Shown piece by piece: positions 48,481-64,000 of a stretch of DNA of 64,000 nucleotides (within the stretch, counting starts at the first letter, position 1; the number at the start of each line of letters is the position of its first letter). Below the pieces are notes generated by a model. That model did no database searches. It was not told the origin of the DNA and saw only the letters and a program-made list of their open reading frames with translations. Both the position numbers and the translations under genes were made by a program. Source of the stretch: a phage; NCBI GenBank assembly GCA_037431425.1, contig GCA_037431425.1_4129.1. One strand, 5' to 3'.

Positions 48481-48503
48481 AAAAGCCAGTATCAAGTACT
48501 GGT
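48481..48503 (-). terminator. rho-independent terminator
   Basis: minus strand ACCAGTACTTGATACTGGC plus TTTT. Confidence 0.7.
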
Positions 48504-48509
48504 ATTTTA

Positions 48510-49859: not shown

Positions 49860-49900
49860 ATTTCCCTCCTTTATTCATTATACTATATTTAATACTAAAA
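49860..49900 (-). promoter_or_regulatory. conserved leader/promoter box
   Basis: minus strand GTATTAAATATAGTATAATGAATAAAGGAGGGAAATATG; TATAAT at 49877-49882; no -35. Confidence 0.55.
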
Positions 49901-49925
49901 GAAAAAGCCAGTACAGAGTACTGGC
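49901..49925 (-). terminator. rho-independent terminator
   Basis: GCCAGTAC..AGTACTGGC plus T-run on minus strand. Confidence 0.75.
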
Positions 49926-49931
49926 ATTATT

Positions 49932-51083: not shown

Positions 51084-51124
51084 ATTTCCCTCCTTTATTC
51101 ATTATACTATATTTAATACTAAAA
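51084..51124 (-). promoter_or_regulatory. conserved leader/promoter box
   Basis: identical to the 49860 copy. Confidence 0.55.
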
Positions 51125-51125
51125 G

Positions 51126-51150
51126 AAAAAGCCAGTACTTGAGTACTGGC
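51126..51150 (-). terminator. rho-independent terminator
   Basis: GCCAGTACTTGAGTACTGGC (two AGTACT) with flanking A and T runs. Confidence 0.75.
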
Positions 51151-51157
51151 TTTCTTA

Positions 51158-52348: not shown

Positions 52349-52386
52349 ATCCCCTCCTTATTCATTATACTATATTTAATCAAAAA
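52349..52386 (-). promoter_or_regulatory. conserved leader/promoter box
   Basis: minus strand ..AAATATAGTATAATGAATAAGGAGGGGATATG. Confidence 0.55.
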
Positions 52387-52387
52387 T

Positions 52388-52410
52388 AAAAGCCAGTATC
52401 AAGTACTGGC
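52388..52410 (-). terminator. rho-independent terminator
   Basis: GCCAGTATCAAGTACTGGC. Confidence 0.7.
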
Positions 52411-52424
52411 ATAGTTTTATAATA

Positions 52425-53531: not shown

Positions 53532-53570
53532 ATCCCCTCCTTATTCATTATACTATATTTAATACAAATA
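53532..53570 (-). promoter_or_regulatory. conserved leader/promoter box
   Basis: same box as other copies. Confidence 0.55.
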
Positions 53571-53572
53571 AG

Positions 53573-53595
53573 AAAAGCCAGTATCAAGTACTGGC
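53573..53595 (-). terminator. rho-independent terminator
   Basis: GCCAGTATCAAGTACTGGC. Confidence 0.7.
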
Positions 53596-53601
53596 CTATA
53601 T

Positions 53602-54771
53602 TTAAACTGGCGAATCTAATATAAATTCTAAACTACTAATGCCACCATATGTGACATCTGTTCCCGTGCTATATACAAAATTACCATCAGTTATATAAGT
53701 TCGGTTATAACTACCTGCCATCTGTGACTTACTATAATCAAACCCATCAGGTACGATTGCTTTGGTATATACTAATGCATTAGTAGATGTACCAATACCT
53801 AACATACCAGCTTGTGTAGATTGATTGTAGCCGCAACAATATATACCATCTGTTGTAGCAATAACTTGGTTATAATATGAAGTATTGTTAGCAATGCTTA
53901 CTACATCACCAGGTGGCATTAGTGATGCTGTTTGTACCTCAAATGCTCTATAATCTTTGAGAGAACCATCTTTCCCATCTGCTTGTGCACCAAATATTCT
54001 TGAACCACCATTTGCGATGATAGTTTTACCAGTAGGATCAGTGCCTATTGCCATTGCCATTGAAGTACCATTATTCACATAGTACTTTATATTAATTGTA
54101 TTACTTAAGCTGGTAGGAGCACCATAATATATATTATATAACTTACTTCCTGAACTTGTAACTGCATTGACTCTTCCTGTATAAAATAACCATCCTTGGT
54201 TTGTAACATAACCGTGCATTAAATTACTTGCAAACAATTTAACAGGTAATTGATTTGCTACGGTAGGAACAGTACTTTTGACGAATCTACCAGAAACATA
54301 GTTAATTGTTGTTCCATCACCCAACTGACCATCCGACCCTACTCCAGTACTCCATATTGTTTGGTCTGATAGTAACACACTTGTAGTCTGATAACTAATG
54401 GCTATATCTAATATTGGTAATGTTAATGTATTGAATATAGGCATAGCAGATGTCCATATTGATACTCCTGACCCTTTCATACCAACAGTTGTTGAACTTC
54501 CACTGTACCATATTTCATTATTGCTTTTCTTAACAACTATCGACGTGGCTCCCATCCAAAAATCTTCAACACCAGAAGTACTAAAAGTCCATGTAGTAAC
54601 AGTATTTTTGTGACCTAAACCCAAAATACCATATGCATTATCACCACGCACATATAAATCACCACTGTTTGTTAAAACAGCAACATTATCGTTGTTAGCA
54701 AGTATTTTTTTAATATTTGGTTTAGCAGGTGCAATATTCCCGTACTTAACCATCCTCGCAAAAGGTAACAA
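53602..54771 (-). CDS. RCC1-like repeat beta-propeller protein, 389 aa
   Basis: TTG start with GGAGA SD and non-conserved leader; LYVRGDNAYGILGLGHK, IWSTGVGSDGQLGDG. Confidence 0.8.
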   Translation of the reverse strand: MLPFARMVKYGNIAPAKPNIKKILANNDNVAVLTNSGDLYVRGDNAYGILGLGHKNTVTTWTFSTSGVEDFWMGATSIVVKKSNNEIWYSGSSTTVGMKGSGVSIWTSAMPIFNTLTLPILDIAISYQTTSVLLSDQTIWSTGVGSDGQLGDGTTINYVSGRFVKSTVPTVANQLPVKLFASNLMHGYVTNQGWLFYTGRVNAVTSSGSKLYNIYYGAPTSLSNTINIKYYVNNGTSMAMAIGTDPTGKTIIANGGSRIFGAQADGKDGSLKDYRAFEVQTASLMPPGDVVSIANNTSYYNQVIATTDGIYCCGYNQSTQAGMLGIGTSTNALVYTKAIVPDGFDYSKSQMAGSYNRTYITDGNFVYSTGTDVTYGGISSLEFILDSPV

Positions 54772-54810
54772 AATTAAATCTCCAAAATTAAAATAATTAT
54801 ATAGTATTTA

Positions 54811-54843
54811 CAAAAATACCAGTACATATTTCAGTACTGGTAT
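54811..54843 (-). terminator. rho-independent terminator
   Basis: ACCAGTAC-ATATTTCA-GTACTGGT. Confidence 0.65.
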
Positions 54844-54847
54844 ATTA

Positions 54848-55969
54848 TTAAAAGGGCAACGGTAACTCAGTAAAAGAACTTACGTCCGGTAAACCATACA
54901 TTGAATTAGCATCACCACAGTAATACCACTTCGTAGAATCATGTACCACCGATAAACGCAGTGCACATAACACTTCCTGTATGTCATTAAACACCATCGG
55001 GACTAACTCATATGTATCTGCAAATGAAGATACACCACCACTCGCATGAAAAGTATTTGTCCCAGCATAAAATAACTGATTAGTGTTCTTACCCACAGCA
55101 AATGTAATCAAATTCCCATCATTCTCCCATAAAGAAGAAAACTTATCAACACTACCAGAAAGCTCTGTGTAAGTACTCGTAATGGCATTAACCGCCGCCG
55201 CATTACCCATCTGTTTATTCAAGTTCTGCCCAGCAATAAAATATCTCGTTCGTGCACTAGAATCAGTATATAATAACCCAGTGTTCGTGGTCATCATTCC
55301 AATGTCCTTAATCGTCATACCAGGCTGTGAATAACTTAGATACGAAGTTAAATTAACATTATTACCCAACGAACCGTTAGAACTCATGCCACAACGATGT
55401 AATATACCACTTGTATCAACGTAGATAGTACTAACACCACTCGTATACAACTCTTGTACATTATTCGCAATAAACACAGCAGTCGCCTTATTACTAACCC
55501 CACCAAATGATAGGTTATTATCAAATCCCTTAGCGTATAATTGATTATTAGTAGTCAATAATCCAATCGTGTAATAAGACATTTTCATATCCCTTACTGT
55601 ACTCAAATCTACTGCCCCAAATTGATACGTAACATCTGTCCATTTGAAAATCTGTGCACTACCAACACCACCCGTTTCAAACCATTTGTCACCACAGTAC
55701 AATATGCGATTATCCTTAGTAAAGATAACTGTTAACGCTCCACTACCACACGCAAACTTTACATCACTTCTAACCTTCGTCCAATCACGTACATAGGTAG
55801 TGGTGTTATTACCTATACCTAACTTGCCATAACGGTTATAACCACGCACCCATAAATCACCACTCTTAGTAATTAATAGTAATGCGTCTCCTGTACTTAT
55901 TATTCGAAATCCCGATCTAGGATCAGGTACAATATTCCCGTACTTAACCATTCTCCCAAAAGGTAACAT
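54848..55969 (-). CDS. RCC1-like repeat beta-propeller protein, 373 aa
   Basis: MLPFGRMVKYGNIVP; LWVRGYNRYGKLGIGNN. Confidence 0.8.
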   Translation of the reverse strand: MLPFGRMVKYGNIVPDPRSGFRIISTGDALLLITKSGDLWVRGYNRYGKLGIGNNTTTYVRDWTKVRSDVKFACGSGALTVIFTKDNRILYCGDKWFETGGVGSAQIFKWTDVTYQFGAVDLSTVRDMKMSYYTIGLLTTNNQLYAKGFDNNLSFGGVSNKATAVFIANNVQELYTSGVSTIYVDTSGILHRCGMSSNGSLGNNVNLTSYLSYSQPGMTIKDIGMMTTNTGLLYTDSSARTRYFIAGQNLNKQMGNAAAVNAITSTYTELSGSVDKFSSLWENDGNLITFAVGKNTNQLFYAGTNTFHASGGVSSFADTYELVPMVFNDIQEVLCALRLSVVHDSTKWYYCGDANSMYGLPDVSSFTELPLPF

Positions 55970-56013: not shown

Positions 56014-56042
56014 TTGACACCCTTTCAGTACTGTTGTACGAT
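56014..56042 (+). promoter_or_regulatory. promoter TTGACA-N17-TACGAT with AGTACT in spacer
   Basis: divergent from the RCC1 array; drives the small-gene array. Confidence 0.6.
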
Positions 56043-56067
56043 AGAAGGAATATTAGGAGAACTACAC

Positions 56068-56295
56068 ATGACAAATACCCTTAAGTACTACCTCAATACT
56101 CTGCCCGACCTAGAGTACGGGAAGTTTCTCGCAGATAGTTCGTGGCTGATTGAGCTAAAAACACATAACAGCCCTGGATGCACCCTTATGATGAACAATG
56201 CTATTGATACCCTTATAGTGAGTATTTTACATAGCAATATCTACAAGGATAACAATAAACAATTAACAAAAATATTAGTACTGCTATCTCTATGA
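56068..56295 (+). CDS. small tandem-array protein, 75 aa
   Basis: trimmed to ATG 56068 with AGGAGA SD; KYYLNTLP N-terminal pattern. Confidence 0.65.
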   Translation: MTNTLKYYLNTLPDLEYGKFLADSSWLIELKTHNSPGCTLMMNNAIDTLIVSILHSNIYKDNNKQLTKILVLLSL

Positions 56296-56495
56296 ATATC
56301 GAACAGTTCTACATCAATGCACTACCAACTAAAAGTCTTCAAGAAAGCCTACTGTATACACAAAAGAATTTTAAAAACTTCAAACGTTGCCCTAAACTAC
56401 TGAACTCGTACATGAATAATATCATAAGAAATGTTTTACAAGGAGAAGAAAGTATGCAATACTATCACATCATTATCCTTATATTGGAGTACTAA
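56292..56495 (+). CDS. small tandem-array protein, 67 aa
   Basis: ATGA coupling; EQFYINALP; ends ..ILILEY. Confidence 0.65.
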   Translation: MNIEQFYINALPTKSLQESLLYTQKNFKNFKRCPKLLNSYMNNIIRNVLQGEESMQYYHIIILILEY

Positions 56496-56496
56496 T

Positions 56497-56706
56497 ATGA
56501 ATACCGAACATAAAGAATTCTACACCAAATACCTCAGCAACGAAGAACAATTGTTTCTAAGAAGTGTATCACCTTTACGTATAGATACACCACACGCCAG
56601 AGAATGCTTTAATAATTGTATACGTAGTACCCTAGAAGCAATCGAATATAATAACAAAAATATTATGTACTCCAGTTTAATCGGACTAATATACTTCTAT
56701 GAATAA
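56497..56706 (+). CDS. small tandem-array protein, 69 aa
   Basis: GTACTAATATG junction; HKEFYTKYLS; paralogue of 59716. Confidence 0.65.
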   Translation: MNTEHKEFYTKYLSNEEQLFLRSVSPLRIDTPHARECFNNCIRSTLEAIEYNNKNIMYSSLIGLIYFYE

Positions 56707-56890
56707 TCATAAAGATTTCTATTGCAGTAAACTACACAAACAATACAGAGATTCATTTCCCAATGAACCTATGGATATGAATAGTCCCTTTTATAACTTT
56801 GACTTCAGACTGGAGACACGTTATGCAATAGAACATCAATTTCCTGAAACTAAGTACTTATCTATCATGAACCTCATCTTTAAGTTCTAA
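56699..56890 (+). CDS. small tandem-array protein, 63 aa
   Basis: HKDFYCSKL; paralogue of 59918. Confidence 0.6.
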   Translation: MNNHKDFYCSKLHKQYRDSFPNEPMDMNSPFYNFDFRLETRYAIEHQFPETKYLSIMNLIFKF

Positions 56891-56942
56891 AAGGTGCACC
56901 AAGGACAGAGTATTTTAATATAGTAAGGCTAATTACACTACC

Positions 56943-57128
56943 ATGAATCACATAAGCTACTACTACCAACAACTATCCGACAGAGACAAGTACAGTCACA
57001 ACTCCCATGTGTGGTACTACAAACGCGGCAGTATAAGAGACAAACATCATTACTTCAGTGCTGCTATAACAGAAGTACTAACAACTAAGTACACGTACAG
57101 AGCAGTACTGAAACTTATCTCTATATAA
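56943..57128 (+). CDS. small tandem-array protein (LKLISI subtype), 61 aa
   Basis: ends AVLKLISI. Confidence 0.65.
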   Translation: MNHISYYYQQLSDRDKYSHNSHVWYYKRGSIRDKHHYFSAAITEVLTTKYTYRAVLKLISI

Positions 57129-57136
57129 GGTACTAT

Positions 57137-57322
57137 ATGAATACATTTGAGTACTATACCAATAAACTATCTATGCCTGAAAGATCTCATCTCTATGTGT
57201 GGAGAAATGCGTATAAAAACGGAAATAAACTTATACAAAGAAATTCCCTTACAGTGTGTACCAATTTAATTAACGCAGAGTACCGCACATATATTGAAGT
57301 ACTGAAACTCATCTCTATCTAA
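57137..57322 (+). CDS. small tandem-array protein (LKLISI subtype), 61 aa
   Basis: MNTFEYYTNKL..EVLKLISI. Confidence 0.65.
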   Translation: MNTFEYYTNKLSMPERSHLYVWRNAYKNGNKLIQRNSLTVCTNLINAEYRTYIEVLKLISI

Positions 57323-57330
57323 GGTACTCT

Positions 57331-57510
57331 ATGCAAGAATTCTATATCTATAATCTCCAGCACAAAGATAGATACAACTATAATCAATTCCAAAGGTACT
57401 ACACCGTCGGGAACATCAAAGATAAAAAACGATACCTACTATCATGTACTGTAGATGCACAAAACAAAAAGTACACGTACAGAGAAGTACTGAAACTAAT
57501 TTCTATTTGA
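57331..57510 (+). CDS. small tandem-array protein (LKLISI subtype), 59 aa
   Basis: hand-translated MQEFYIYNLQ..EVLKLISI; below track cut-off. Confidence 0.6.
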   Translation: MQEFYIYNLQHKDRYNYNQFQRYYTVGNIKDKKRYLLSCTVDAQNKKYTYREVLKLISI

Positions 57511-57518
57511 GGTAATAT

Positions 57519-57707
57519 ATGAATACTTTTGAGTACTACTTCAATAAACTAAATTCCATAGAACAAAATATGTACAATTCATATATTAAGTACTATCAAT
57601 CATCTGCACCTGGAATTAAAAATATATCAATAAAGATTATCACTAACCGTGTACTGACATCTGAACGTTATATGTATATGGATGCACTGAAACTCATCTC
57701 TATGTAA
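57519..57707 (+). CDS. small tandem-array protein (LKLISI subtype), 62 aa
   Basis: MNTFEYYFNKL..DALKLISM. Confidence 0.65.
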   Translation: MNTFEYYFNKLNSIEQNMYNSYIKYYQSSAPGIKNISIKIITNRVLTSERYMYMDALKLISM

Positions 57708-57717
57708 GGAATAAACT

Positions 57718-57897
57718 ATGAACAATTTCTATATAGAACACATAACCATAAAAGACCGTTTCATGTACGACACCTTCGTGAAGTACTACAACCTCGCAAC
57801 TAACAGTACTAAAAATATCAATCTCAATAGCTGCATACACCAAGCACTAACAAAAGAAAATCCCTTCAGGGAAATCCTTGCACTTGCATCTGTATAA
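57718..57897 (+). CDS. small tandem-array protein (LKLISI subtype), 59 aa
   Basis: hand-translated MNNFYIEHIT..EILALASV; below track cut-off. Confidence 0.55.
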   Translation: MNNFYIEHITIKDRFMYDTFVKYYNLATNSTKNINLNSCIHQALTKENPFREILALASV

Positions 57898-57907
57898 AGG
57901 AATTCAA

Positions 57908-58573
57908 ATGAAACTTAATCCACAAAGTAAACAATACCTTAAGCACTTTAAGTACCTCAACAGTATTCAAGCAGAATCTATTACATCTTCTTATACTTAT
58001 CACCCGAATATACTAAAGAAACGAAATAAAAAGAATAAATCCAGTACAGATCTAGTATCAAAGAACCTCAAATCGTACTTGAAGAAAAATAATATCTCTA
58101 TTCATTGTGCGAATATCTATAATACTGATTTAAAAGCATTGAGTACTAATACCAGCACAAAAACACTAAAGAATACATCTATCTATATCTATATGCACCT
58201 GGATAATATCCCGTGCACTATAATTCTATCTTTCGGGAATGTATACTTCTTCGGGAATTGTAATACCACCCATGATATCCGTACAGCACAATTCCAAATC
58301 GGAGATATGTACTGCATGGGTTCAGAAAAAATACACGATAACATGCATTTCTTCCAACAGCAACGTACAGAAGAAACTAATACAGTACTAGAATTCCTCA
58401 AAGAACTTCAAAACAAAGAATTATCTCAAGAAGAACTATTCATGTACAGCACCGTAATCAATAATCCAGAACTCTACAAAAACGCGTACAATCTAACAAA
58501 ACATGTGCAGGAACTTATTAGTACTAATAAGAAAATTCATCACCTCATGACATATATTGCAAACTATGCATAA
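57908..58573 (+). CDS. long-form EE-x-F-x-ST family protein, 221 aa
   Basis: trimmed to ATG 57908 with AAGGA SD; basic N-terminus; motif SQEELFMYSTV. Confidence 0.7.
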   Translation: MKLNPQSKQYLKHFKYLNSIQAESITSSYTYHPNILKKRNKKNKSSTDLVSKNLKSYLKKNNISIHCANIYNTDLKALSTNTSTKTLKNTSIYIYMHLDNIPCTIILSFGNVYFFGNCNTTHDIRTAQFQIGDMYCMGSEKIHDNMHFFQQQRTEETNTVLEFLKELQNKELSQEELFMYSTVINNPELYKNAYNLTKHVQELISTNKKIHHLMTYIANYA

Positions 58574-58751
58574 AGAATACTACCAAAATAAACTCCCAAT
58601 GCATCTACAACACCTTGTACCAACAGAACCATTGGGTATAGAAAAAGACTACGAAAAAGACTACTTCATTAAGTGCACCAAATCCTCAATAGATATTGAG
58701 GACTATAATCGAGTACTGTATCACATCCTTTTACTAATATATAAGTACTAA
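58566..58751 (+). CDS. small tandem-array protein (IYRY subtype), 61 aa
   Basis: MHKEYYQNKLPMHLQHL..LLLIYKY. Confidence 0.65.
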   Translation: MHKEYYQNKLPMHLQHLVPTEPLGIEKDYEKDYFIKCTKSSIDIEDYNRVLYHILLLIYKY

Positions 58752-58752
58752 T

Positions 58753-58947
58753 ATGAATAATGAATACTATAAAGAATACTACCAAAATAAACTCCCTATG
58801 TATCTACAACACCTTATACCAACAAAACCTATTGGCATAAAAGATCATGAAAAAATAATGTTCCAACAATGTTCTAAGTACATCCTAATAGACGATCACA
58901 ATCCATATATGCTGTACTATATAATAATGCTAACATTCAGGTACTAA
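58753..58947 (+). CDS. small tandem-array protein (IYRY subtype), 64 aa
   Basis: KEYYQNKLPMYLQHL..IMLTFRY. Confidence 0.65.
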   Translation: MNNEYYKEYYQNKLPMYLQHLIPTKPIGIKDHEKIMFQQCSKYILIDDHNPYMLYYIIMLTFRY

Positions 58948-58948
58948 T

Positions 58949-59131
58949 ATGCACAAAGAATACTACACACAATTTCTCCCCAGTATATTTGAACACTACG
59001 CCAGATATAAAGTCCCACTGGATAACGATTTGGCAGTACTCGGATTCAATAACTGCATAGAACGCAGTATAGAAAATAGTAGTTCATATGACCAACTATA
59101 TAACACTATCCTACTTATATTCAGGTACTAA
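58949..59131 (+). CDS. small tandem-array protein (IYRY subtype), 60 aa
   Basis: MHKEYYTQFLP..ILLIFRY. Confidence 0.65.
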   Translation: MHKEYYTQFLPSIFEHYARYKVPLDNDLAVLGFNNCIERSIENSSSYDQLYNTILLIFRY

Positions 59132-59132
59132 T

Positions 59133-59321
59133 ATGTTTAAAGAATACTACGCAAAATATTTCCCAATGTATCTCAGAACTAATCTATTAGATAAACCTCG
59201 CGATATCAATGCTCAAAACGATAAAGTGTACTTTATTATGTGCACTAAAGCATGTATACTAGATCATGACAGCTACCATCGAGTACTCTATCATACACTG
59301 TACCTAACATTCGTGTACTAA
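59133..59321 (+). CDS. small tandem-array protein (IYRY subtype), 62 aa
   Basis: trimmed to ATG 59133; MFKEYYAKYFPMYL..LYLTFVY. Confidence 0.65.
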   Translation: MFKEYYAKYFPMYLRTNLLDKPRDINAQNDKVYFIMCTKACILDHDSYHRVLYHTLYLTFVY

Positions 59322-59331
59322 AGAGAACATT

Positions 59332-59526
59332 ATGCAACACAAGTTCAAAGAATTCTACTTAAGCCGCCTGGAACTAAACTCCCAAATGCTTATACCACTA
59401 AAACCAATAGATATCAAGGATAAGAAAAATACCCAACAATTCATCTACCATACACAGTGTGCTATCTCCCCAGATTATAATACATATAAATTGTACTATA
59501 TCATCGCCCTAATACTCAGGTACTAA
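59332..59526 (+). CDS. small tandem-array protein (IYRY subtype), 64 aa
   Basis: FKEFYLSRL..IALILRY. Confidence 0.65.
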   Translation: MQHKFKEFYLSRLELNSQMLIPLKPIDIKDKKNTQQFIYHTQCAISPDYNTYKLYYIIALILRY

Positions 59527-59528
59527 TC

Positions 59529-59714
59529 ATGTATAAAGAATACTACACACAATTTGTTAAAGAAAACTACAAATATGCCGTCCCCATAAAACCCTTAAAT
59601 GCTAATGACCCAAATACTATATTCCTGTTTAATGACGCAATACGTACAGTACTCAATACTAAAGATGAACAAGTGCAGTACGTATTCTTACTTTTACTTA
59701 TATACAGACACTAA
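59529..59714 (+). CDS. small tandem-array protein (IYRY subtype), 61 aa
   Basis: MYKEYYTQFV..LLLLIYRH. Confidence 0.65.
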   Translation: MYKEYYTQFVKENYKYAVPIKPLNANDPNTIFLFNDAIRTVLNTKDEQVQYVFLLLLIYRH

Positions 59715-59715
59715 T

Positions 59716-59925
59716 ATGAATAAAGTACATAAAGAATTCTATTCCAGATACCTCAGCCTATCAGAACAAATGTTTATAAGATCTACACCACCATTAAGTA
59801 CTGATACTTACTTCGGTAGAGTATGCTACAATAAATGTGTACAAATGACTTTAAACGCAAACGACAATAATAACAGTACTAACCTGTACTCAGGCATCAT
59901 AGGTATACTATTTCTATATGATTAA
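59716..59925 (+). CDS. small tandem-array protein, 69 aa
   Basis: trimmed to ATG 59716; HKEFYSRYLS; paralogue of 56497. Confidence 0.65.
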   Translation: MNKVHKEFYSRYLSLSEQMFIRSTPPLSTDTYFGRVCYNKCVQMTLNANDNNNSTNLYSGIIGILFLYD

Positions 59926-60100
59926 AGAATATAAAGACTTCTACATAAGAAAACTAACATTCGTCCCCGTAAGAATATACAAAGAATGCGACCCAAGATT
60001 ATACCTATGGCACTTCAATGAGTGCATAAAAGATTCTATATACCCTAAGAACTATAAAGAACAATTGTGCTCAGTACTAACACTAGTACTATCATATTAA
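59918..60100 (+). CDS. small tandem-array protein, 60 aa
   Basis: YKDFYIRKL; paralogue of 56699. Confidence 0.6.
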   Translation: MIKEYKDFYIRKLTFVPVRIYKECDPRLYLWHFNECIKDSIYPKNYKEQLCSVLTLVLSY

Positions 60101-60113
60101 TAGAGATAATACT

Positions 60114-60326
60114 ATGAATAAAGAACATAAAAACTTCTATATAAGTAAACTAAAAGAAAATGAACAAGTATGGATTAGATCTATAATAGAACTGGCATTT
60201 AATAGATACGCACTGAATAGATGTACACAGATTGCTATAGACCCTTATCCCATTGAAGAGGATGAAAAGGATGTACAGTACAATCAGTACTACTATATCT
60301 TAATGCTTATATATAGACCTATATAG
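60114..60326 (+). CDS. small tandem-array protein, 70 aa
   Basis: HKNFYISKL..LMLIYRPI; last gene before the noncoding region. Confidence 0.65.
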   Translation: MNKEHKNFYISKLKENEQVWIRSIIELAFNRYALNRCTQIAIDPYPIEEDEKDVQYNQYYYILMLIYRPI

Positions 60327-60340
60327 GAAACTACACAGGC

Positions 60341-60423
60341 GAATTGCTAAAATTCAGCCTGCTATACGTCTGAATTGTTAAAATTCAGCCTGCTATACGT
60401 CTGAATTGTTAAAATTCAGCCTG
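60341..60423. repeat. 31-bp direct tandem repeat, 2.7 copies
   Basis: GAATTG(C/T)TAAAATTCAGCCTGCTATACGTCT at 60341, 60372, and partial at 60403; each unit contains the inverted repeat TGAATT..AATTCA. Confidence 0.9.
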
Positions 60424-60467
60424 GACAAATGCGATCACCAGGATTCTCTCCAGGCTAAACACCGTAG

Positions 60468-60534
60468 TCATAAGTAATCATAAGTAATCATATATAAACA
60501 TTTATATGAGCATTTATAAGCATTTATAAGCACC
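60468..60534. repeat. short tandem decamers
   Basis: CATAAGTAAT x2.5, then GCATTTATAA x2, each block flanked by ACCGTAG. Confidence 0.75.
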
Positions 60535-61027
60535 GTAGAATCACAGAATGATTATATATGATTCAGTACTGCCCCAAAAGTATTCAGTACTGAAGAATTA
60601 CCCCTGAATGATTCAGTACTGATATGCCACTAAGTAGGCAGAGGAAGTCTGCCGTACTTTGTAGTTTCCAAGCTCCTTTTCCATTTTGCAAATTACATCA
60701 AATGTAATCAAAAGTAATCACGTAATGATTAGTACTGAAATATTAGTTTCATCTTTTTTCAAATACCTTTTTACCCTTCGGGGTAAATGTATTTTTACCC
60801 ATTTACCTTTGGGGTAAAATCCCATTACCCCTTGAGGCTCCAGCAAAAAGTTGGAAAGTACTCCATCCTAAATCTCGATCCTAAAAATTTTGGAGTACCT
60901 ATGAAATAAAAGTTGGATCTTCGAAAGTTGAAATTTACGTTGGGACGTTTATGATTTGTGGGATATAATGATGTTTGTAGTCGGGTAGTTCTCAAGAATA
61001 TCAGTACTGAATGGTGAAAGAAAGTTA

Positions 61028-61055
61028 TTGACATTATGATTCAGTACTGTATAAT
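61028..61055 (+). promoter_or_regulatory. promoter TTGACA-N16-TATAAT with AGTACT in spacer, inside ORF-free region
   Basis: read directly; downstream has GNRA hairpin CTGTC-GTGA-GACAG and no ORF. Confidence 0.6.
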
Positions 61056-61435
61056 GTTCTACATAGAGAGATGAGTTGCTGCGAACAATTCATTTACTCT
61101 ACCTCCTGTCGTGAGACAGTACAGAAAAGATAGTTCCTCCTGTGGTGGTACATCTTTTTGAACCTCATATGAAAATCGTAATAACAGTACTGGTATTAAC
61201 AGAATGGTATCAGTACTGACTTTAATCTAATACATTATACCACCAGCTTGTGCTGGTGGATTCCCTCTAACAGTATTCAGTACTACATGATAGTCTTCAT
61301 CCTCCTAGGGTAACATAGTGAGGGCTATTGTGGGAGTACTGAATACTCCTTTCAAAAGATAGAATAATGGTATAGTACCGACGGATTTTGGGCGTAGTTA
61401 CCCTGGGTGTATTTTGGACGTAGATATGTCTAGCC

Positions 61436-61578
61436 CTCCAGAAGTCTGGAAGTAAAGATGGCTATCTATCTAGACGGCTAAACGGCTAGATTTCTAGATG
61501 GCTGTATGGCTAGACGTTTGGATGGCTAAACGGCTAAACGGCTAGATGGTTACACGTCTGGAAGTATAGACGGCTAAA
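61436..61578. repeat. iteron block: 8 GGCTA cores bracketed by direct repeats GTCTGGAAGTA
   Basis: GGCTA at 61460, 61476, 61484, 61508, 61524, 61532, 61540, 61572 (consensus ACGGCTAAA/ACGGCTAGA); GTCTGGAAGTA at 61444-61454 and 61556-61566. Confidence 0.85.
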
Positions 61579-61927
61579 TCAAAATTTTTATTTTGTTTTT
61601 CCAATAGTTCCCCTACCGCGTGAGGATATTTTTTCCCCGCAGTATCTGGAGTTAGATTTTTCTGAATCTGGAATCATTATCTAATAAACTGGGGGCAATG
61701 TCAACCGCCTGGATGAATATTTTTAAAAAATAATCTAGTACTAAATTTTGGGCGTAACTATGCACCCGGTGGGCTTGAGTCTTTCTCGACTTGATGAAAT
61801 AATTATATCAGTACTGAAAAAATAAAGCAATACCCTAAACGCAAAAAAAATTTAATTAATTTGCTTGCTATTCTGGGCCGTACTATGGTACTATTAATTC
61901 AGTACTGAGAAAGTGCTTTTACCTGCT

Positions 61928-61999
61928 AGGGTGCGGGAGTGTATCCTTTTTAAATTTTATGAATTTTGGGCAGATCTCCGCACCCTGTGGGTTAGTGCC
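61928..61999. repeat. GC-rich dyad element (long hairpin), copy A
   Basis: AGGGTGCGGGAG ... CTCCGCACCCT arms around an AT-rich 45-nt core; shares the 16-mer GGTGCGGGAGTGTATC with the 63898 copy. Confidence 0.7.
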
Positions 62000-62210
62000 T
62001 TGTGTCCGGCTTATGTAGTAATTATACGCTTTTTCAGTACTGAGTCAATACCTAAAAACAAAATAATTGAAAATAATTTAACGCGTTTAAACGGCCCGTA
62101 AAGCCCTGGAATGATTAGAATGGTGCAAATGTATAGCTTAGGTGTAATATCTCGTTAGAATGCGACTGAGGCCGTTTTACGGGGTATAGGGATGATTTAG
62201 TGGATTGATT

Positions 62211-62298
62211 CAGTACTGAATAATAGTACTCCTATATAGAAAGATAGTTCCCCTGGATGGTTGCAGTACTGAATAATAGTACTCCTATATAGAAAGAA
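62211..62298. repeat. 35-bp direct repeat x2
   Basis: CAGTACTGAATAATAGTACTCCTATATAGAAAGA at 62211 and 62264. Confidence 0.85.
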
Positions 62299-62329
62299 AA
62301 CTATTTTAAAAAGTATTTGTAGAAAGTAC

Positions 62330-62388
62330 TTGCACCGTACTGATAAAAGCGTATAATGTTTTACATCGAGAGCGGGAGCACTTCCCGC
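62330..62388 (+). promoter_or_regulatory. conserved promoter plus 5' hairpin cassette, copy 1
   Basis: TTGCAC-N16-TATAAT, then TTTTACATCGAGAGCGGGAGCACTTCCCGC (stem GCGGGA/TCCCGC). Confidence 0.7.
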
Positions 62389-62412
62389 TACACATTAAGA
62401 GAGATTAAAACG

Positions 62413-62775
62413 ATGGCGACTCAAATCAATAAAATTATTGCTAACCTGGTTAACTTCCGTGAAGAGATGAAAGGTCTTCCGGCTGAAACGGTAAAAATTC
62501 ACATTTCAGCTTATCGGGAACTTATTGCAATGTTACCGCTTAAGCGTGAACAATACGCCGCTACCGTGATGCTTGATGCGATGATCAATAAGATGATCGC
62601 CAGTGATTTAACGATGGTTTATCAGTACATGGGCGAAAATTTCGCGGTGTCTGGTAAGCCAGTACCAGGGATGGCAACTACTGAGGAATTGCACGGTTTA
62701 AATTTAAAACAAGATGCATGGGATAATATGCCTCGTTTCCTGGTATGGGCTGACAGTGGCAAAATTTACAAATAA
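62413..62775 (+). CDS. hypothetical protein, 120 aa
   Basis: trimmed to ATG 62413 (MATQINK) downstream of the cassette; higher GC than the rest of the window. Confidence 0.75.
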   Translation: MATQINKIIANLVNFREEMKGLPAETVKIHISAYRELIAMLPLKREQYAATVMLDAMINKMIASDLTMVYQYMGENFAVSGKPVPGMATTEELHGLNLKQDAWDNMPRFLVWADSGKIYK

Positions 62776-62789
62776 GTTTAATAAAGTAC

Positions 62790-62875
62790 TTGCCAACTAA
62801 GTTTAAAAGCGTATAATACTTTACATCAGGTGCAACGGGAAGTTTAAAAACTTCCCTATAGGGGAATAGTTCCCC
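62790..62875 (+). promoter_or_regulatory. promoter plus 5' hairpin cassette, copy 2 (variant)
   Basis: TTGCCA-N16-TATAAT; hairpins GGGAAG..CTTCCC and GGGGA-ATAGT-TCCCC. Confidence 0.65.
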
Positions 62876-62896
62876 ACTATATAAGAGGATTAAAAA

Positions 62897-63136
62897 ATGG
62901 CTAAATCAAAAATGTTCTTAGGTCACAAAAACAAAACTCATTGGAATGTAAGCCTTTGGATTAATAACGATGAATCATTATACCGGTTGGCCCTGGACTT
63001 TATTGCCGCTAATACTAATCGCAATGATGCGGCCCGTCATATGATGTTATTTTTAGAACAGACTGGACAAGATAAAACACCGGACGGATTCAAATATAGC
63101 ACTACTGCGATCCGTGCGGCGATGGTTGGAATGTAA
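62897..63136 (+). CDS. hypothetical protein, 79 aa
   Basis: AGAGGA SD. Confidence 0.75.
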   Translation: MAKSKMFLGHKNKTHWNVSLWINNDESLYRLALDFIAANTNRNDAARHMMLFLEQTGQDKTPDGFKYSTTAIRAAMVGM

Positions 63137-63149
63137 TAGAATTTATTTA

Positions 63150-63184
63150 AAGTACTATCGCAAAAAATGATAGTACTTTATAAT
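63150..63184 (+). promoter_or_regulatory. AGTACT-based hairpin abutting TATAAT
   Basis: AAGTACTATC..GATAGTACTT stem followed directly by TATAAT. Confidence 0.5.
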
Positions 63185-63221
63185 AGTGTTTTATTCATAC
63201 ACCAACGATAAGGGCAATAGC

Positions 63222-63488
63222 ATGAATATTAAGTATTTTGCGACGCGTGAACAAGCTCGGAAGGCGGCGAAAGTGGAAGGTGCAACGTTTAAAGATATGG
63301 GCATACAATCGGAACGTGGTAAACGTTGGGCCATTGTAAAGCGTAGTACAGCCAGATCATTACAGTACTGGTTAGCGGCTTTAAAAAGTCCTGCTAGTGT
63401 ATCGCGTCGAGTGGTAGAAATAAAGCTCGACCGTAAGGGGAATCGTGTTACCGTGTACCGTACTAAAAAGATAGCAGTACTTGAATAA
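63222..63488 (+). CDS. basic hypothetical protein, 88 aa
   Basis: trimmed to ATG 63222 with AAGGG SD. Confidence 0.7.
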   Translation: MNIKYFATREQARKAAKVEGATFKDMGIQSERGKRWAIVKRSTARSLQYWLAALKSPASVSRRVVEIKLDRKGNRVTVYRTKKIAVLE

Positions 63489-63495
63489 AAAGAAC

Positions 63496-63554
63496 TTGCA
63501 AACTATGTTTAATGGCGTATAATGTTTTACATCGAGAGCGGGAACACTTCCCGC
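63496..63554 (+). promoter_or_regulatory. conserved promoter plus 5' hairpin cassette, copy 3
   Basis: TTGCAA-N16-TATAAT, then TTTTACATCGAGAGCGGGAACACTTCCCGC; near-identical to copy 1. Confidence 0.7.
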
Positions 63555-63575
63555 CTATAAACTGGAGTAATAAAA

Positions 63576-63806
63576 ATGACTAATATGTATATGACTGAAG
63601 TTAAAACCGTAAAAGATACTACCACGAATAAAACTACTTACTTACAGCGGATCTGCGGTGTATGGCAACGTATCAGCAAATCAAAGTACTATAAATTAAC
63701 ATCATATGCCAATCGTTCGGATTCATTCAGTACTGAAATAAAAGGTAATAAAGTACACCAATACGGCACTTATTATTATTATAGCCTGGACGCGATTGCA
63801 GTATAA
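63576..63806 (+). CDS. hypothetical protein, 76 aa
   Basis: GGAG SD. Confidence 0.7.
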   Translation: MTNMYMTEVKTVKDTTTNKTTYLQRICGVWQRISKSKYYKLTSYANRSDSFSTEIKGNKVHQYGTYYYYSLDAIAV

Positions 63807-63836
63807 GTAGTTTACAAATCTTTACAATTGCCGGTA

Positions 63837-63865
63837 TTGACTTAAAATGTCAGTACTGGCATAAT
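63837..63865 (+). promoter_or_regulatory. promoter TTGACT-N17-CATAAT with AGTACT in spacer
   Basis: read directly; transcribes GC-rich dyad copy B. Confidence 0.55.
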
Positions 63866-63885
63866 GTATCTATTGAAACGAACAA

Positions 63886-63966
63886 TTTGGCCCACGGGGT
63901 GCGGGAGTGTATCTATAGCAAAATTAGTTTAGTATAATTACAATTGTGCACCCGGTGGGTTAGCTG
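63886..63966. repeat. GC-rich dyad element, copy B
   Basis: CCCACGGGGTGC (63891-63902) pairs with GCACCCGGTGGG (63948-63959), 11/12; same 16-mer as copy A. Confidence 0.7.
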
Positions 63967-64000
63967 TTGTCATGGGGTATATTATGCCAGTACTTGATAA

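What the first reader, a model, noticed from the sequence alone, without database searches (positions are those of the whole stretch)
60327..62355. 2-kb ORF-free, repeat-dense region separating two differently organised gene blocks: candidate origin, packaging site or genome terminus
After the last small-array gene there are about 2 kb with no credible ORF. The region holds several repeat families:
- a 31-bp tandem repeat
- decamer repeats
- about 20 AGTACT/TTCAGTACTGAA sites
- TTTACCC/GGGGTAAA hairpins
- the recurring motif ATAGTTCC(C/T)C
- a GGCTA iteron block
- GC-rich dyads
- a 35-bp direct repeat

Downstream genes differ from the rest of the window. They are GC-richer and use a different conserved promoter cassette. 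This pattern is typical of a replication origin, a pac/terminase recognition region, or the junction of the physical ends of a linear genome that was circularised during assembly.
Basis: partly seen in the sequence, partly recalled or inferred. Interest (0 to 1): 0.7.

Follow-up and report, generated by a model that had tools for sequence, protein, structure and literature searches.

The report
Left end of jumbo-phage terminal repeat
This ORF-free 2 kb holds the left physical end (base 60633) of a roughly 21-kb direct terminal repeat of a 121Q/PBECO4-type jumbo coliphage, followed by a conserved non-coding leader that includes an unreported array of 15 sites resembling operators of the host methionine repressor MetJ.

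Summary
Window 60327-62412 has no conserved ORF and is dense in repeats.

The window comes from an Asteriusvirus, a 121Q/PBECO4-like jumbo coliphage. Six GenBank records of relatives begin at exactly the base that aligns to window 60633 (AGTAGGCAGAGG...), and each carries a second copy about 21 kb from its other end. [quoted passage not shown] So 60633 is the left boundary of a long direct terminal repeat (DTR), not a junction of both ends.

Left of 60633 the sequence varies between relatives. Right of it, 1.8 kb of non-coding DNA is about 89% conserved, as well as the neighbouring gene. It contains:
- a terminal cut motif, CTA^AG, inverted at the right end of the repeat;
- a consensus sigma-70 promoter followed by a candidate structured RNA of about 210 nt;
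- the "GGCTA iterons", which are 15 tandem 8-mers passing a published MetJ operator matrix;
- a hairpin that covaries across five genera;
- early-gene promoters.

The same 8-mer arrays occur near the ends of unrelated T7-like and T5-like phages. Other jumbo genera carry Fur-box-like repeats at the same position.

An origin function is neither supported nor excluded. A headful pac site is contradicted.

The parts
60341..60423 (.). 31-bp tandem repeat (2.7 copies), outside the terminal repeat. It is a lineage-specific duplication.
   Evidence: Only the window and ph0011 have extra copies; 60% of the other genomes show a gap here.
60418..60456 (+). Conserved dyad AGCCTGG...CCAGGCT after the last small-array gene. 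It may terminate transcription of the upstream block (inferred).
   Evidence: Read directly from the sequence. Bins 60408-60457 are 0.89-0.99 conserved.
60464..60532 (.). Decamer repeats GTAATCATAA (x2.9) and TAAGCATTTA (x4.6), 100-170 bp upstream of the cut. The GTAATCA copies are mirrored by copies at 60697-60730.
   Evidence: (family D7).
60557..60623 (.). Three (T)TCAGTACTG palindromes just outside the terminus, in the most variable stretch of the region.
   Evidence: (D5, D13). Identity among relatives is 0.37-0.56.
60628..60637 (+). Left cut site CACTA|AGTAG. The cut lies between 60632 and 60633, and the packaged strand begins 5'-AG.
   Evidence: Six records start at this base (sequences).
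60633..64000 (+). Start of the ~21-kb direct terminal repeat, which runs beyond the window.
   Evidence: Repeat lengths are 20,993 bp (fEgEco12, PMC13070987), 21,525 bp (vB_Ec-M-J annotation) and 20,668 bp (Sharanji, PMC11895373). Two copies per record.
60633..60757 (.). Near-invariant terminal 125 bp. It holds the hairpin GGCAG-N7-CTGCC (60637-60653), AAGTC at +13..+17 (60645-60649), and the GTAATCA repeats (60697-60730).
   Evidence: Identity 0.94, with the first 25 nt at 1.00. AAGTC sits at the same offset in Muenster, CBB, BF and XbC2. Hairpin.
60770..60830 (+). TTTACCC/GGGTAAA hairpins. They look like terminators and are variable.
   Evidence: 60783-60807 is absent from 83% of relatives.
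60857..60898 (.). Hairpin GTACTCCA - (ATCCTAAA x2) - TGGAGTAC, conserved across genera.
   Evidence: 93% identical over 46 nt in Kae01, with a partial match in CBB. XbC2 carries a variant.
61028..61055 (+). P1, a consensus sigma-70 promoter (TTGACA-16-TATAAT, 12/12) with TTCAGTACTG in the spacer, pointing inward about 400 bp from the end.
   Evidence: The same promoter type occurs in the tRNA region. It is conserved in relatives and in Muenster.
61062..61275 (+). Candidate early non-coding RNA of about 210 nt transcribed from P1. It has five hairpins and two CCUCCU stretches.
   Evidence: Fold z = -5.3. RNAalifold gives 55 pairs, 6 of them compensatory, with G.U pairs valid only on the plus strand. 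No ORF and no Rfam match.
61384..61405 (.). Conserved left flank of the array cassette (GATTTTGGGCGTAGTTACCCTG).
   Evidence: Matched in Kae01 at 645-666.
61440..61575 (.). The 'GGCTA iteron block'. It is AGAAGTCT at 61440 plus 15 consecutive 8-bp boxes (61456-61575) of the form AGAYGKCT, which resemble MetJ metboxes.
   Evidence: With the published MetJ matrix and thresholds it is the only site in 64 kb: 15 boxes, 107.3 bits. Genuine E. coli operators score 4 boxes/31.2 bits and 4 boxes/24.9 bits; shuffles give at most 3 boxes/19 bits. Matrix correlation is 0.86 in register and at most 0.06 out of register. All 12 Asteriusvirus genomes examined carry the array: 14-15 consecutive boxes in six, 12 in Sharanji, and two or three shorter runs (4-8 boxes each) in the other five.
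61596..61646 (.). Conserved box TTTTTCCAATAGTTCCCCTACCGCG plus a hairpin (61614-61644) whose stem sequence differs between genera.
   Evidence: 9 pairs, 5 with compensatory changes, across Asteriusvirus, Muenster, Kae01, CBB, BF and XbC2.
61676..61704 (-). Leftward sigma-70-like promoter (TTGACA-17-GATAAT, 11/12) pointing at the array. It is convergent with P1.
   Evidence: The hexamers are conserved in Kae01.
61744..62048 (-). Two GCACCCKGTGGG elements (E2 at 61762, E3 at 61929-61990), each with a leftward promoter carrying CAGTACTG in its spacer. The promoters are 61797-61830 (identified by eye) and 62021-62048. These are candidate small RNAs or bidirectional stem-loops.
   Evidence: (D10). 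The E3 minus-strand fold has z = -3.1. The same paired elements occur in CBB, BF, Kae01 and at window 63891-63960.
62201..62297 (.). Two 44-nt direct repeats, each containing TTCAGTACTGAATAATAGTACTCC.
   Evidence: (D6), 93% identity.
62330..62412 (+). First early-gene cassette: promoter TTGCAC-16-TATAAT (62330-62357), a leader hairpin GCGGGAGCACTTCCCGC, an RBS, then the ATG at 62413.
   Evidence: D16 links its -10/leader to P1. Repeated at 62790-62817 and 63496-63523.

Best explanation
**What it is.** The window comes from an Asteriusvirus, a 121Q/PBECO4-type jumbo coliphage. The region spans the left boundary of the phage's ~21-kb direct terminal repeat (DTR). Base 60633 is the left physical end of the virion DNA.

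**Outside the repeat.** 60327-60632 is the variable tail of the unique region. In the virion it lies just before the right-hand copy of the repeat.

**Inside the repeat.** 60633-62412 is a conserved non-coding leader that precedes the host-RNA-polymerase-transcribed early genes.

**How the ends are probably made (inferred).**
- In concatemeric DNA, a site-specific nuclease cuts 5' of AG in CTA^AG at the left boundary.
- It cuts the inverted copy of the same motif on the other strand about 21 kb away.
- Fixed-distance pentamers at +13..+17 and flanking GTAATCA repeats probably act as recognition elements.
- Strand-displacement synthesis then duplicates the repeat, as in the T7-type model.

**What the leader probably does (inferred).** It is probably the last DNA packaged and the first to enter the cell. 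It carries:
- an inward-facing consensus sigma-70 promoter about 400 bp from the end, driving a structured non-coding RNA;
- a 15-box array predicted to bind the host MetJ-SAM repressor cooperatively, flanked by convergent promoters;
- a covarying hairpin;
- small stem-loop/promoter units;
- the first early-gene promoters.

**Shown:** position of the terminus in relatives, non-coding status, conservation, motif statistics. **Inferred:** the cutting mechanism, entry polarity, RNA expression, MetJ binding.
For: **Identity.** Best hit is ph0011 at 95.7%; 156 related records.

**Terminus.**
- fEgEco12, vB_Ec-M-J, BAU.Micro_ELP-22, CRJP21, E9.1 and BF17 all start at the base aligned to 60633, and each has two copies.
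- G17, WPEC3 and WPEC5 show the same in reverse orientation.
- fEgEco12 has a 20,993-bp DTR by PhageTerm plus restriction digests (PMC13070987).
- Sharanji has a 20,668-bp DTR by PhageTerm (PMC11895373). That equals the boundary coordinate in the G17 record.

**Cut motif.**
- Left site: CACTA|AGTAGG.
- Reverse complements of the right sites: CGCTA|AGGTTA (fEgEco12), TGCTA|AGCCTA (Muenster), CGCTA|AGCGTT (CBB).
- vB_Ec-M-J has one extra A/T in both of its sites.
- AAGTC lies at +13..+17 from the left end in five genera. CTTTA lies at +13..+17 inward from the right end in three.

**Conservation.** Identity is 0.39 just outside the terminus, 0.94 in the first 125 nt inside, 0.885 over the whole leader, and 0.876 in the first gene.

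**Non-coding.** ORFs are broken in relatives.

**Architecture in distant genera.** Muenster, Kae01 and CBB, all with DTRs mapped by PhageTerm or by read depth plus PFGE, show the same layout: terminus, then an ORF-poor leader whose first substantial CDS starts about 1.3-1.4 kb in (short, unconserved ORFs are annotated earlier in Kae01 and CBB), then small plus-strand genes. They share DNA blocks with the window.

**Elements.** Promoter P1 and its RNA. MetJ-like array. Covarying hairpin.
Against: - No reads or virion DNA exist for this particular phage, so the terminus is assigned by homology only.
- Some of the six records may have been re-oriented to match an earlier one rather than determined independently.
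- The phAPEC6 paper inferred headful packaging from terminase phylogeny (PMC7247149).
- CBB, BF, XbC2 and Kae01 left ends begin TATC rather than AG, so the cut motif is not universal.
- The UE-S1 authors reported a different DTR (8.3 kb). The fEgEco12 paper regards that as mis-assigned.
- Nothing shows which end is packaged or injected first.
- RNA evidence rests on close relatives; all six compensatory pairs come from one sequence (JNE01).
- Phage boxes have G at position 6 in 45-78% of cases, against 10% in genuine metboxes.
- XbC2 carries the array, yet its listed host (Xanthomonas) has no MetJ.
Confidence: 0.8

Rival explanations
1. The region is, or contains, the origin of DNA replication. 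The 8-mer array would act as iterons, the adjacent AT-rich stretch (61576-61602) as an unwinding element, and a flanking promoter would provide an R-loop primer, as at T4 oriF/oriG.
For: - The array, AT-rich tract and convergent promoters sit together.
- The covarying hairpin next to the array could be a single-strand initiation signal.
- There is a local minimum of cumulative GC skew at 60-61 kb.
- This reading is not mutually exclusive with the terminus.
Against: - An 8-bp period is atypical for iterons, and the boxes match a known repressor operator.
- The same arrays lie near the ends of T7-like and T5-like phages; for T5, replication origins map near the middle of the genome (statement in 10.1101/866236).
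- Muenster and Kae01 replace the array with Fur-box-like repeats.
- No DnaA box occurs in the region, and no initiator gene is adjacent.
- The skew change coincides with a gene-block change, and the plus-strand small-gene array has anomalous negative skew.
Confidence: 0.15
2. The region is a pac site for headful packaging. Terminase would start a series of imprecise cuts here and the genome would be circularly permuted.
For: The large terminase of relatives clusters with T4-type headful enzymes (PMC7247149). Short repeats flank a cut point, as at P1 or SPP1 pac (from established knowledge).
Against: - Fixed, identical first bases in six records and ~21-kb exact repeats.
- Restriction fragments of fEgEco12 match a linear, non-permuted map.
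- PhageTerm calls long DTRs in Sharanji, Muenster and Kae01.
Confidence: 0.04
3. The 8-mer array is bound not by host MetJ but by a phage-encoded (or other host) ribbon-helix-helix-type protein with a similar 8-bp register. Alternatively, it works through DNA shape alone (CTAG kinks every 8 bp).
For: - There is a systematic G at box position 6 in all phage lineages.
- The array is present in XbC2, whose host lacks MetJ.
- The array is not associated with any met gene.
Against: - The phages sharing the array (jumbo, T5-like, T7-like and other vibriophages) are otherwise unrelated. This favours a common host factor.
- All hosts but one belong to the orders that have MetJ.
- Box-by-box variation follows the MetJ tolerance profile: A/G at position 1, G/A at 2, C/T at 4, never T at 3.
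- In other phages the same slot holds Fur-box-like repeats, which are sites resembling another host repressor's operators.
Confidence: 0.3
4. The region is a functionless spacer in which slippage and recombination have piled up repeats.
For: The part outside the repeat (60327-60632) is variable. It shows lineage-specific duplications and deletions.
Against: - The leader inside the repeat is as conserved as the coding sequence.
- Blocks survive between genera that the fEgEco12 paper reports as sharing only 23-30% ANI.
- A hairpin covaries across genera.
- The array register is kept in all 12 Asteriusvirus genomes examined.
Confidence: 0.03

Closest known systems
Mapped direct terminal repeats of Asteriusvirus relatives (fEgEco12, vB_Ec-M-J, Sharanji) and of Muenster, Kae01 and CBB
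   Same: The terminal sequence is the same in Asteriusvirus: the first 25 nt are identical and the first 125 nt are 94% identical. The repeat is ~20-22 kb. An ORF-poor leader is followed by small plus-strand early genes.
   Different: Those papers and records report only the coordinates and length of the repeat. The anatomy of the leader, the cut motif, the array and the RNA candidates are not described in any of the papers read. For this window the end is inferred, not measured.
Phage T5 left terminal repeat: untranslated repeat regions and the 'injection stop signal' (Davison preprint 10.1101/866236; T5 record AY587007)
   Same: - It is a long DTR with a repeat-dense, highly conserved non-coding kilobase.
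- Conservation there exceeds that of neighbouring ORFs.
- Arrays of host-protein sites have been proposed (DnaA boxes).
- T5-like Vibrio, Aeromonas and Providencia phages carry the same metbox-like 8-mer array.
- T5's palindromes E-I are nearly identical to the Fur-box-like repeats of the jumbo phage Muenster.
   Different: - In T5 the region lies at the inner end of the repeat (9.2-10.4 kb). Here it is in the first 1.8 kb.
- This region has no DnaA boxes.
- T5 itself has no metbox array.
- Two-step injection is not known for jumbo phages.
Phage T7 left end: terminal repeat, short repeat arrays, then A1-A3 host promoters (from established knowledge, Dunn and Studier 1983; not re-read here)
   Same: - Fixed ends made from concatemers.
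- Short repeat arrays next to the end.
- Strong inward sigma-70 promoters a few hundred bp from the end that enters first.
- The T7-like phage PGT2 carries a 9-box array 38-109 nt from its left end, inside its repeat.
   Different: The T7 repeat is 160 bp, not 21 kb. T7's own arrays are CCTAAAG-type, not metbox-like. Entry polarity is unproven here.
E. coli MetJ operators (metJ/metB, metF): tandem 8-bp metboxes, consensus AGACGTCT (PMC3228920, PMC4239095)
   Same: Tandem head-to-tail 8-bp boxes in the same register. Per-box scores are similar (7.2 bits against 6.2-7.8). The metF operator reads GGACGTCTAAACGGATAGATG and the phage array reads AGACGGCTAAACGGCTAGATG.
   Different: There are 15 boxes rather than 2-5. 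The array is not upstream of a met gene. G is preferred at position 6. Binding is untested.

Membership tests
Long direct terminal repeat boundary (non-permuted, T5-type 'DTR long') | The sequence at the boundary is homologous to an experimentally mapped terminus. | tested here: met
   Six records start at the base aligned to 60633. The first 25 nt are identical and the first 125 nt are 94% identical. fEgEco12 ends were confirmed by PhageTerm and digests.
Long direct terminal repeat boundary (non-permuted, T5-type 'DTR long') | The same sequence is present at both ends of the virion DNA. | tested here: met
   Met in relatives: two places per record, one at position 1 and one ~21 kb from the other end. 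It cannot be seen within this 64-kb window.
Long direct terminal repeat boundary (non-permuted, T5-type 'DTR long') | Read-start pile-up at the ends and two-fold coverage over the repeat in this phage's own data. | not testable with these tools
   No reads are available for the window.
Headful pac site | Circularly permuted, imprecise ends. | tested here: not met
   Relatives have identical first bases and exact repeats. The restriction pattern fits a linear, non-permuted map.
Iteron-type replication origin | Iterons of about 17-22 bp bound by an initiator encoded nearby, with DnaA boxes and an AT-rich unwinding element. | tested here: inconclusive
   - The repeat period is 8 bp.
- No DnaA box occurs in the region.
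- Neighbouring genes have unknown function with no Rep-like domain.
- An AT-rich tract is present at 61576-61602.
- Replication itself was not tested.
MetJ operator | Two or more adjacent 8-bp metboxes, each scoring at least a quarter of the consensus, with a total at least equal to the consensus (criteria of PMC3228920). | tested here: met
   15 adjacent boxes totalling 107.3 bits (consensus 12.58). It is the only such site in 64 kb; shuffles give at most 3 boxes.
MetJ operator | Overlaps the promoter of a methionine-regulon gene. | tested here: not met
   There is no gene within 800 bp. The flanking promoters are 95 and 400 bp away.
MetJ operator | Bound by MetJ in a SAM-dependent manner. 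| not testable with these tools
   This needs EMSA, footprinting or ChIP.
T5 injection-stop region | Paired DnaA boxes in inverted repeats at the inner end of the first-step-transfer DNA. | tested here: not met
   No DnaA boxes. The region lies at the outer end of the repeat. Only the array and Fur-like modules are shared with T5-like phages.
Known RNA families (Rfam) / tRNA | Match to a covariance model. | tested here: not met
   No Rfam match at E <= 1 in 59000-64000. No tRNA in the region.

The most novel reading that the evidence does not exclude
The first DNA of fixed-end (DTR) phages to enter the cell may carry an exchangeable cassette of operator arrays for abundant, co-repressor-dependent host repressors.

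- Metbox-like arrays (MetJ-SAM) occur in Asteriusvirus, Mimasvirus, Eneladusvirus, T7-like PGT2/phiKT/KPV811 and T5-like Vibrio, Aeromonas and Providencia phages.
- Fur-box-like arrays (Fur-Fe) occur in Alcyoneusvirus Muenster, Kae01 and T5 itself.
- In the jumbo phages the two kinds of array occupy the same slot between the same conserved flanks.

The phage would recruit a host nucleoprotein filament. That filament could act as a roadblock or anchor controlling genome entry or early convergent transcription. Alternatively it could read out host SAM/iron status, or titrate the repressor.
Probability: 0.35. Interest if true: 0.8.

Novelty: new variant of a known kind. Interest (0 to 1): 0.62.

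Why it matters
**For annotation.** It fixes the natural start of Asteriusvirus genomes. Most of the related records retrieved are arbitrarily permuted or collapsed. It also shows that 1.8 kb of apparently empty DNA is as conserved as the neighbouring gene.

**For mechanism.** It gives a concrete, mutable cut motif: inverted CTA^AG with fixed-distance pentamers. This bears on how 20-kb terminal repeats are generated, which no paper read here explains for these jumbo phages.

**The host-repressor arrays.** A 15-box MetJ-operator-like array recurs near the ends of unrelated T7-like, T5-like and jumbo phages, almost exclusively on hosts that have MetJ. In sister genera and in T5 it is replaced by Fur-box-like repeats at the same position. 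No paper linking MetJ or Fur sites to phage genome ends turned up in the library searched. If host repressors are really recruited there, a long-standing puzzle becomes directly testable with metJ and fur mutants: what the repeat-dense untranslated regions of terminal repeats, including the T5 injection-stop region, actually do.

Tried and rejected
- **Rfam and tRNA.** An Rfam scan of 59000-64000 at E <= 1 found nothing. ARAGORN found tRNAs only at 6-10 kb.
- **IMG/VR.** A pattern scan for the terminal 25-mer returned only 121Q itself, so comparative work relied on GenBank phage records.
- **DnaA boxes.** TTWTNCACA: none in the region, and fewer in the window than expected by chance.
- **Fur boxes.** Hits in the window are at chance level and none lie in the region. 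The Fur-like cassette belongs to other genera.
- **Right terminus.** The right-terminus sequence of relatives is not in the window.
- **T5.** T5 itself was checked for the 8-mer array and lacks it. Its DRD repeats are a different family, TGTGCAAATCCGACA.
- **AGTACT as a promoter element.** Rejected as a fixed-position element. There is no flanking information beyond (C)AGTACT(G). Density in coding sequence is 2.45 per kb, and distances to start codons are scattered. Only the extended TTCAGTACTG form sits in promoter spacers.
- **Other host operators.** Comparison by eye of TTCAGTACTGAA with the TrpR, Cra, LexA and MetR operators (from memory) gave no convincing match.
- **Left/right termini.** A search for a longer shared motif found only the short inverted CTA^AG core and the +13..+17 pentamers, which differ between the two ends.
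- **GC skew.** Not usable as origin evidence. It follows gene blocks, and the small-gene array is compositionally anomalous.
- **Neighbouring genes.** Pfam and PHROGs scans gave only unknown-function families.


Full report
**1. What the sequence is**

The window is from an Asteriusvirus, a 121Q/PBECO4-type jumbo myovirus of E. coli with a genome of about 350 kb.
- Megablast of 60000-64000 finds 156 phage records. The best is ph0011 (95.7%), followed by E9.1, 121Q, phAPEC6 and others.
- In the annotations of 121Q and ph0011 the same ~2-kb gap carries no gene. The same holds for PBECO4, phAPEC6, SP27, A4 and Sharanji.
- A few records place short ORFs in the gap, inconsistently. fEgEco12 annotates one in the right copy only; JNE01 and UE-S1 also annotate some.

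**2.

- The "35-bp" direct repeat is 44 nt.
- The 31-bp tandem repeat is a duplication private to the window/ph0011 lineage.
- AGTACT is not special to this region. The window has 184 copies against 19.3 expected. The region holds 20 of them, about 3.5 times the window average.

The region is truly non-coding.
- Each of the five largest ORFs (>=37 aa) is interrupted by stops or frameshifts in close relatives.
- There is no tRNA and no Rfam family at E <= 1.
- The first real gene starts at 62413.

**3. The key result: a mapped genome end**

The fEgEco12 paper reports a 374,733-bp linear genome with 20,993-bp direct terminal repeats. These were found by PhageTerm and confirmed with restriction digests (PMC13070987).

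I fetched both ends of that record and of vB_Ec-M-J, whose record annotates a 21,525-bp repeat. Position 1 of both is AGTAGGCAGAGGAAGTCTGCC..., which aligns to window 60633.
- A 300-nt query starting at 60633 hits position 1 of six records: fEgEco12, vB_Ec-M-J, BAU.Micro_ELP-22, CRJP21, E9.1 and BF17. Each has a second copy about 21 kb from the far end.
- In G17, WPEC3 and WPEC5 it hits the mirror-image position.
- Sharanji's PhageTerm repeat length of 20,668 bp (PMC11895373) equals the boundary coordinate in G17.

The right terminus sequence of relatives is not in the window, as expected if it lies ~21 kb downstream. So 60633 is the left end of the virion DNA and the start of the long terminal repeat. 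In this window it is assigned by homology, not by measurement.

**4. Conservation pattern**

I aligned the window with 11 relatives (12 sequences in all).
- The ~100 nt just outside the terminus are the most variable part, with identity 0.39.
- The first 125 nt inside have identity 0.94; the first 25 nt are invariant.
- The whole non-coding leader 60633-62412 has identity 0.885, the same as the first gene at 0.876.

**5. How the ends look**

Written as outside|inside, the left site is CACTA|AGTAGG. The reverse complements of the right sites are:
- CGCTA|AGGTTA in fEgEco12,
- TGCTA|AGCCTA in Muenster,
- CGCTA|AGCGTT in CBB.

Both 5' ends of the virion DNA therefore begin AG after CTA, and the two sites are inverted copies.
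- vB_Ec-M-J has one extra A/T in both of its sites (CTAA|AG and CT|TTAG). This is a small but telling covariation.
- AAGTC lies at exactly +13..+17 from the left end in Asteriusvirus, Muenster, CBB, BF and XbC2.
- CTTTA lies at +13..+17 inward from the right end in three genera.
- Three GTAATCA decamers lie about 150 nt outside the left cut and three lie about 70-100 nt inside it.

My inference is as follows. One nuclease, presumably the terminase, nicks opposite strands at the two boundaries of the single repeat copy in a concatemer. Strand-displacement synthesis then duplicates the 21 kb. This is the model proposed for T7, and I cite it from general knowledge. It has not been shown for these phages.

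One caveat: CBB-type and Kae01 left ends begin TATC, not AG.

**6. The leader, element by element**

(a) *Conserved hairpin.* GTACTCCA...TGGAGTAC (60857-60898), with two ATCCTAAA repeats, is 93% identical in Kae01. The fEgEco12 paper lists Kae01 at about 29% ANI to fEgEco12.

(b) *Promoter P1 and its RNA.* P1 (61028-61055) is a perfect TTGACA-16-TATAAT promoter facing inward about 400 bp from the end.
- Its spacer holds TTCAGTACTG, like promoters in the tRNA cluster of the window.
- The downstream 210 nt fold far better than shuffles, z = -5.3.
- They keep 55 pairs across eight variants. Six pairs show compensatory changes, all from JNE01. Several G.U pairs work only on the plus strand.
- This is a candidate early non-coding RNA. 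It contains two CCUCCU stretches.

(c) *The "GGCTA iteron block".* See section 7.

(d) *Conserved box and hairpin.* Directly after the array lies the box TTTTTCCAATAGTTCCCCTACCGCG and a hairpin. The stem sequence differs in Asteriusvirus, Muenster, Kae01, CBB, BF and XbC2 while pairing is kept: 5 of 9 pairs are compensatory.

(e) *Leftward promoter.* A promoter at 61704-61676 faces the array, convergent with P1.

(f) *GCACCCKGTGGG units.* Two units have leftward promoters and stem-loops. Paired versions recur at 63891-63960 and in CBB, BF and Kae01.

(g) *Direct repeats and early-gene cassette.* Two 44-nt repeats are followed by the first early-gene cassette. Its -10 and leader resemble those of P1 (family D16).

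**7. The array**

In register the block reads AGAAGTCT GGAAGTAA AGATGGCT ATCTATCT AGACGGCT AAACGGCT AGATTTCT AGATGGCT GTATGGCT AGACGTTT GGATGGCT AAACGGCT AAACGGCT AGATGGTT ACACGTCT GGAAGTAT AGACGGCT.

MetJ, the E. coli methionine repressor, binds tandem 8-bp metboxes with consensus AGACGTCT (PMC4239095). I applied the published half-site matrix and thresholds of PMC3228920.
- The only site in the 64-kb window is 15 consecutive boxes at 61456-61575, totalling 107.3 bits.
- The genuine metJ/metB and metF operators, fetched from MG1655, score 4 boxes/31.2 bits and 4 boxes/24.9 bits.
- Twenty shuffles of the window never exceed 3 boxes/19 bits.
- The base-frequency matrix of the phage boxes correlates 0.86 with the MetJ matrix in this register and at most 0.06 in the other seven.
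- The one systematic departure is G rather than T at position 6.
- All 12 Asteriusvirus genomes examined carry the array. Six have 14-15 consecutive boxes, Sharanji has 12, and five have it split into two or three runs of 4-8 boxes.

**8. The array elsewhere**

Distant blastn with the block, and again with the Aeromonas phage array, finds 79 and 90 records. They fall into three groups.
- Other jumbo genera: CBB, XbC2, GAP32, BF, pEa_SNUABM and Yen9-04, about 0.7-0.8 kb from record starts where these are the mapped ends.
- T7-like Ermolevavirus: PGT2 has 9 boxes at nt 38-109 from its left end, inside its repeat. phiKT and KPV811 also match.
- T5-like phages of Vibrio, Aeromonas and Providencia, plus other vibriophages. 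Pontus has 15 boxes and AhSzw-1 has 16. In AhSzw-1 the array lies in a 1.9-kb unannotated gap a few kb from the A2 gene, next to a DnaA box and T5-type DRD repeats; Pontus shows the same DnaA-box/array/DRD order.

All listed hosts except Xanthomonas (XbC2) belong to orders that possess MetJ.

**9. A cassette swap**

Muenster and Kae01 have no metboxes. Yet between the same two conserved flanks they carry about 120 nt of repeats such as GAGAATGATAATGATTCTC. The flanks are GATTTTGGGYGTA..CCTG on the left and the box-plus-hairpin on the right.
- These repeats match 16/19 of the Fur-box consensus GATAATGATAATCATTATC, which I quote from established knowledge.
- There are 9 hits of at least 14/19 in 4 kb of Muenster, against 1-10 per shuffled 64 kb.
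- T5's palindromes E-I in its injection-stop region are almost the same sequence.

Davison's preprint describes that T5 region and proposes that DnaA boxes there bind host DnaA. It does not mention Fur or MetJ. Full-text searches found no paper linking MetJ or Fur sites to phage genome ends, and none on AGTACT in jumbo phages.

**10. Interpretation and limits**

*Well supported:* the region is the left DTR boundary plus its leader.

*Plausible but inferred:*
- The leader is the first DNA to enter the cell, by analogy with T7 and T5, and because the sigma-70-driven early genes follow it.
- P1 makes an RNA.
- The array binds MetJ.

What such binding would achieve is open. Candidates are:
- a roadblock between convergent promoters;
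- a brake or anchor during genome entry;
- a metabolic sensor;
- repressor titration as the phage DNA replicates.

An origin of replication is not excluded but has no specific support. A headful pac site is contradicted by the fixed ends of relatives.

Noticed in passing
whole window; also L019 (Muenster), L020 (Kae01), L021 (CBB): The palindrome AGTACT is about 10-fold over-represented genome-wide: 184 against 19.3 expected, 2.45 per kb even inside coding sequence. It is by far the commonest palindromic hexamer in the first 4 kb of three other jumbo genera (29-38 copies each). No flanking context exists beyond (C)AGTACT(G), and no explanation was found. Palindromes are usually avoided in phage genomes.
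   Followed up: partly
window 7225-7290, 7605-7670, 8365-8430 and 61028-61055: The extended form TTCAGTACTG(T/A) fills the spacer of TTGAC(A/T)...TATAAT promoters in the tRNA cluster and at P1. This looks like an operator for a dimeric regulator of host-polymerase promoters.
   Followed up: partly
L019 785-905 and 1060-1100; L020 700-800; L026 (T5 9470-9640): Fur-box-like palindromes (GAGAATGATAATGATTCTC) occupy, in Muenster and Kae01, the slot that holds the metbox array in the window. T5's injection-stop palindromes E-I are nearly the same sequence.
   Followed up: partly
window 56014-60326: This is an array of about 20 plus-strand paralogous genes of ~60 aa (phrog_11711 for the last two). 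Their coding strand is A- and C-rich: GC skew is -0.19 to -0.28 and AT skew +0.17 to +0.23. This is the opposite skew sign to the other plus-strand genes of the window.
   Followed up: partly
window 47291-55969 (minus strand): Seven tandem paralogues of 368-449 aa lie on the minus strand. The one scanned (54848-55969) has RCC1-like beta-propeller repeats (Pfam PF25390, below cut-off; phrog_4219 at 1e-56).
   Followed up: partly
window 63821-63965: A further GCACCCKGTGGG unit inside the early-gene block consists of CCCACGGGGTGCGGGAG, then 57 nt downstream GCACCCGGTGGG, preceded by a TTGACT-17-CATAAT promoter. The same paired element with the same 57-nt spacing occurs twice in CBB.
   Followed up: partly
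L024 3430-3500 (AhSzw-1), L023 1340-1500 (Pontus), L026 (T5 9670-9900): The T5 'DRD' repeats (TGTGCAAATCCGACA) have counterparts after the metbox array in T5-like Vibrio and Aeromonas phages. In AhSzw-1 the variant is AAGTACTTATCCGACA, which contains AGTACT. The arrays there sit next to a CCCTCCTGCGCC sequence resembling T5's 7.9% nick site.
   Followed up: no
window 6153-9988: A cluster of six tRNA genes: Ser-TGA, Arg-TCT, Ser-GCT, Met-CAT, Asn-GTT and Thr-TGT.
   Followed up: no
L014 (UE-S1) and PMC12805682: UE-S1 was published with an 8,298-bp terminal repeat. Yet it carries the same terminus sequence internally, at record position 117,923. This agrees with the fEgEco12 authors' remark that its repeat is mis-assigned.
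   Followed up: partly
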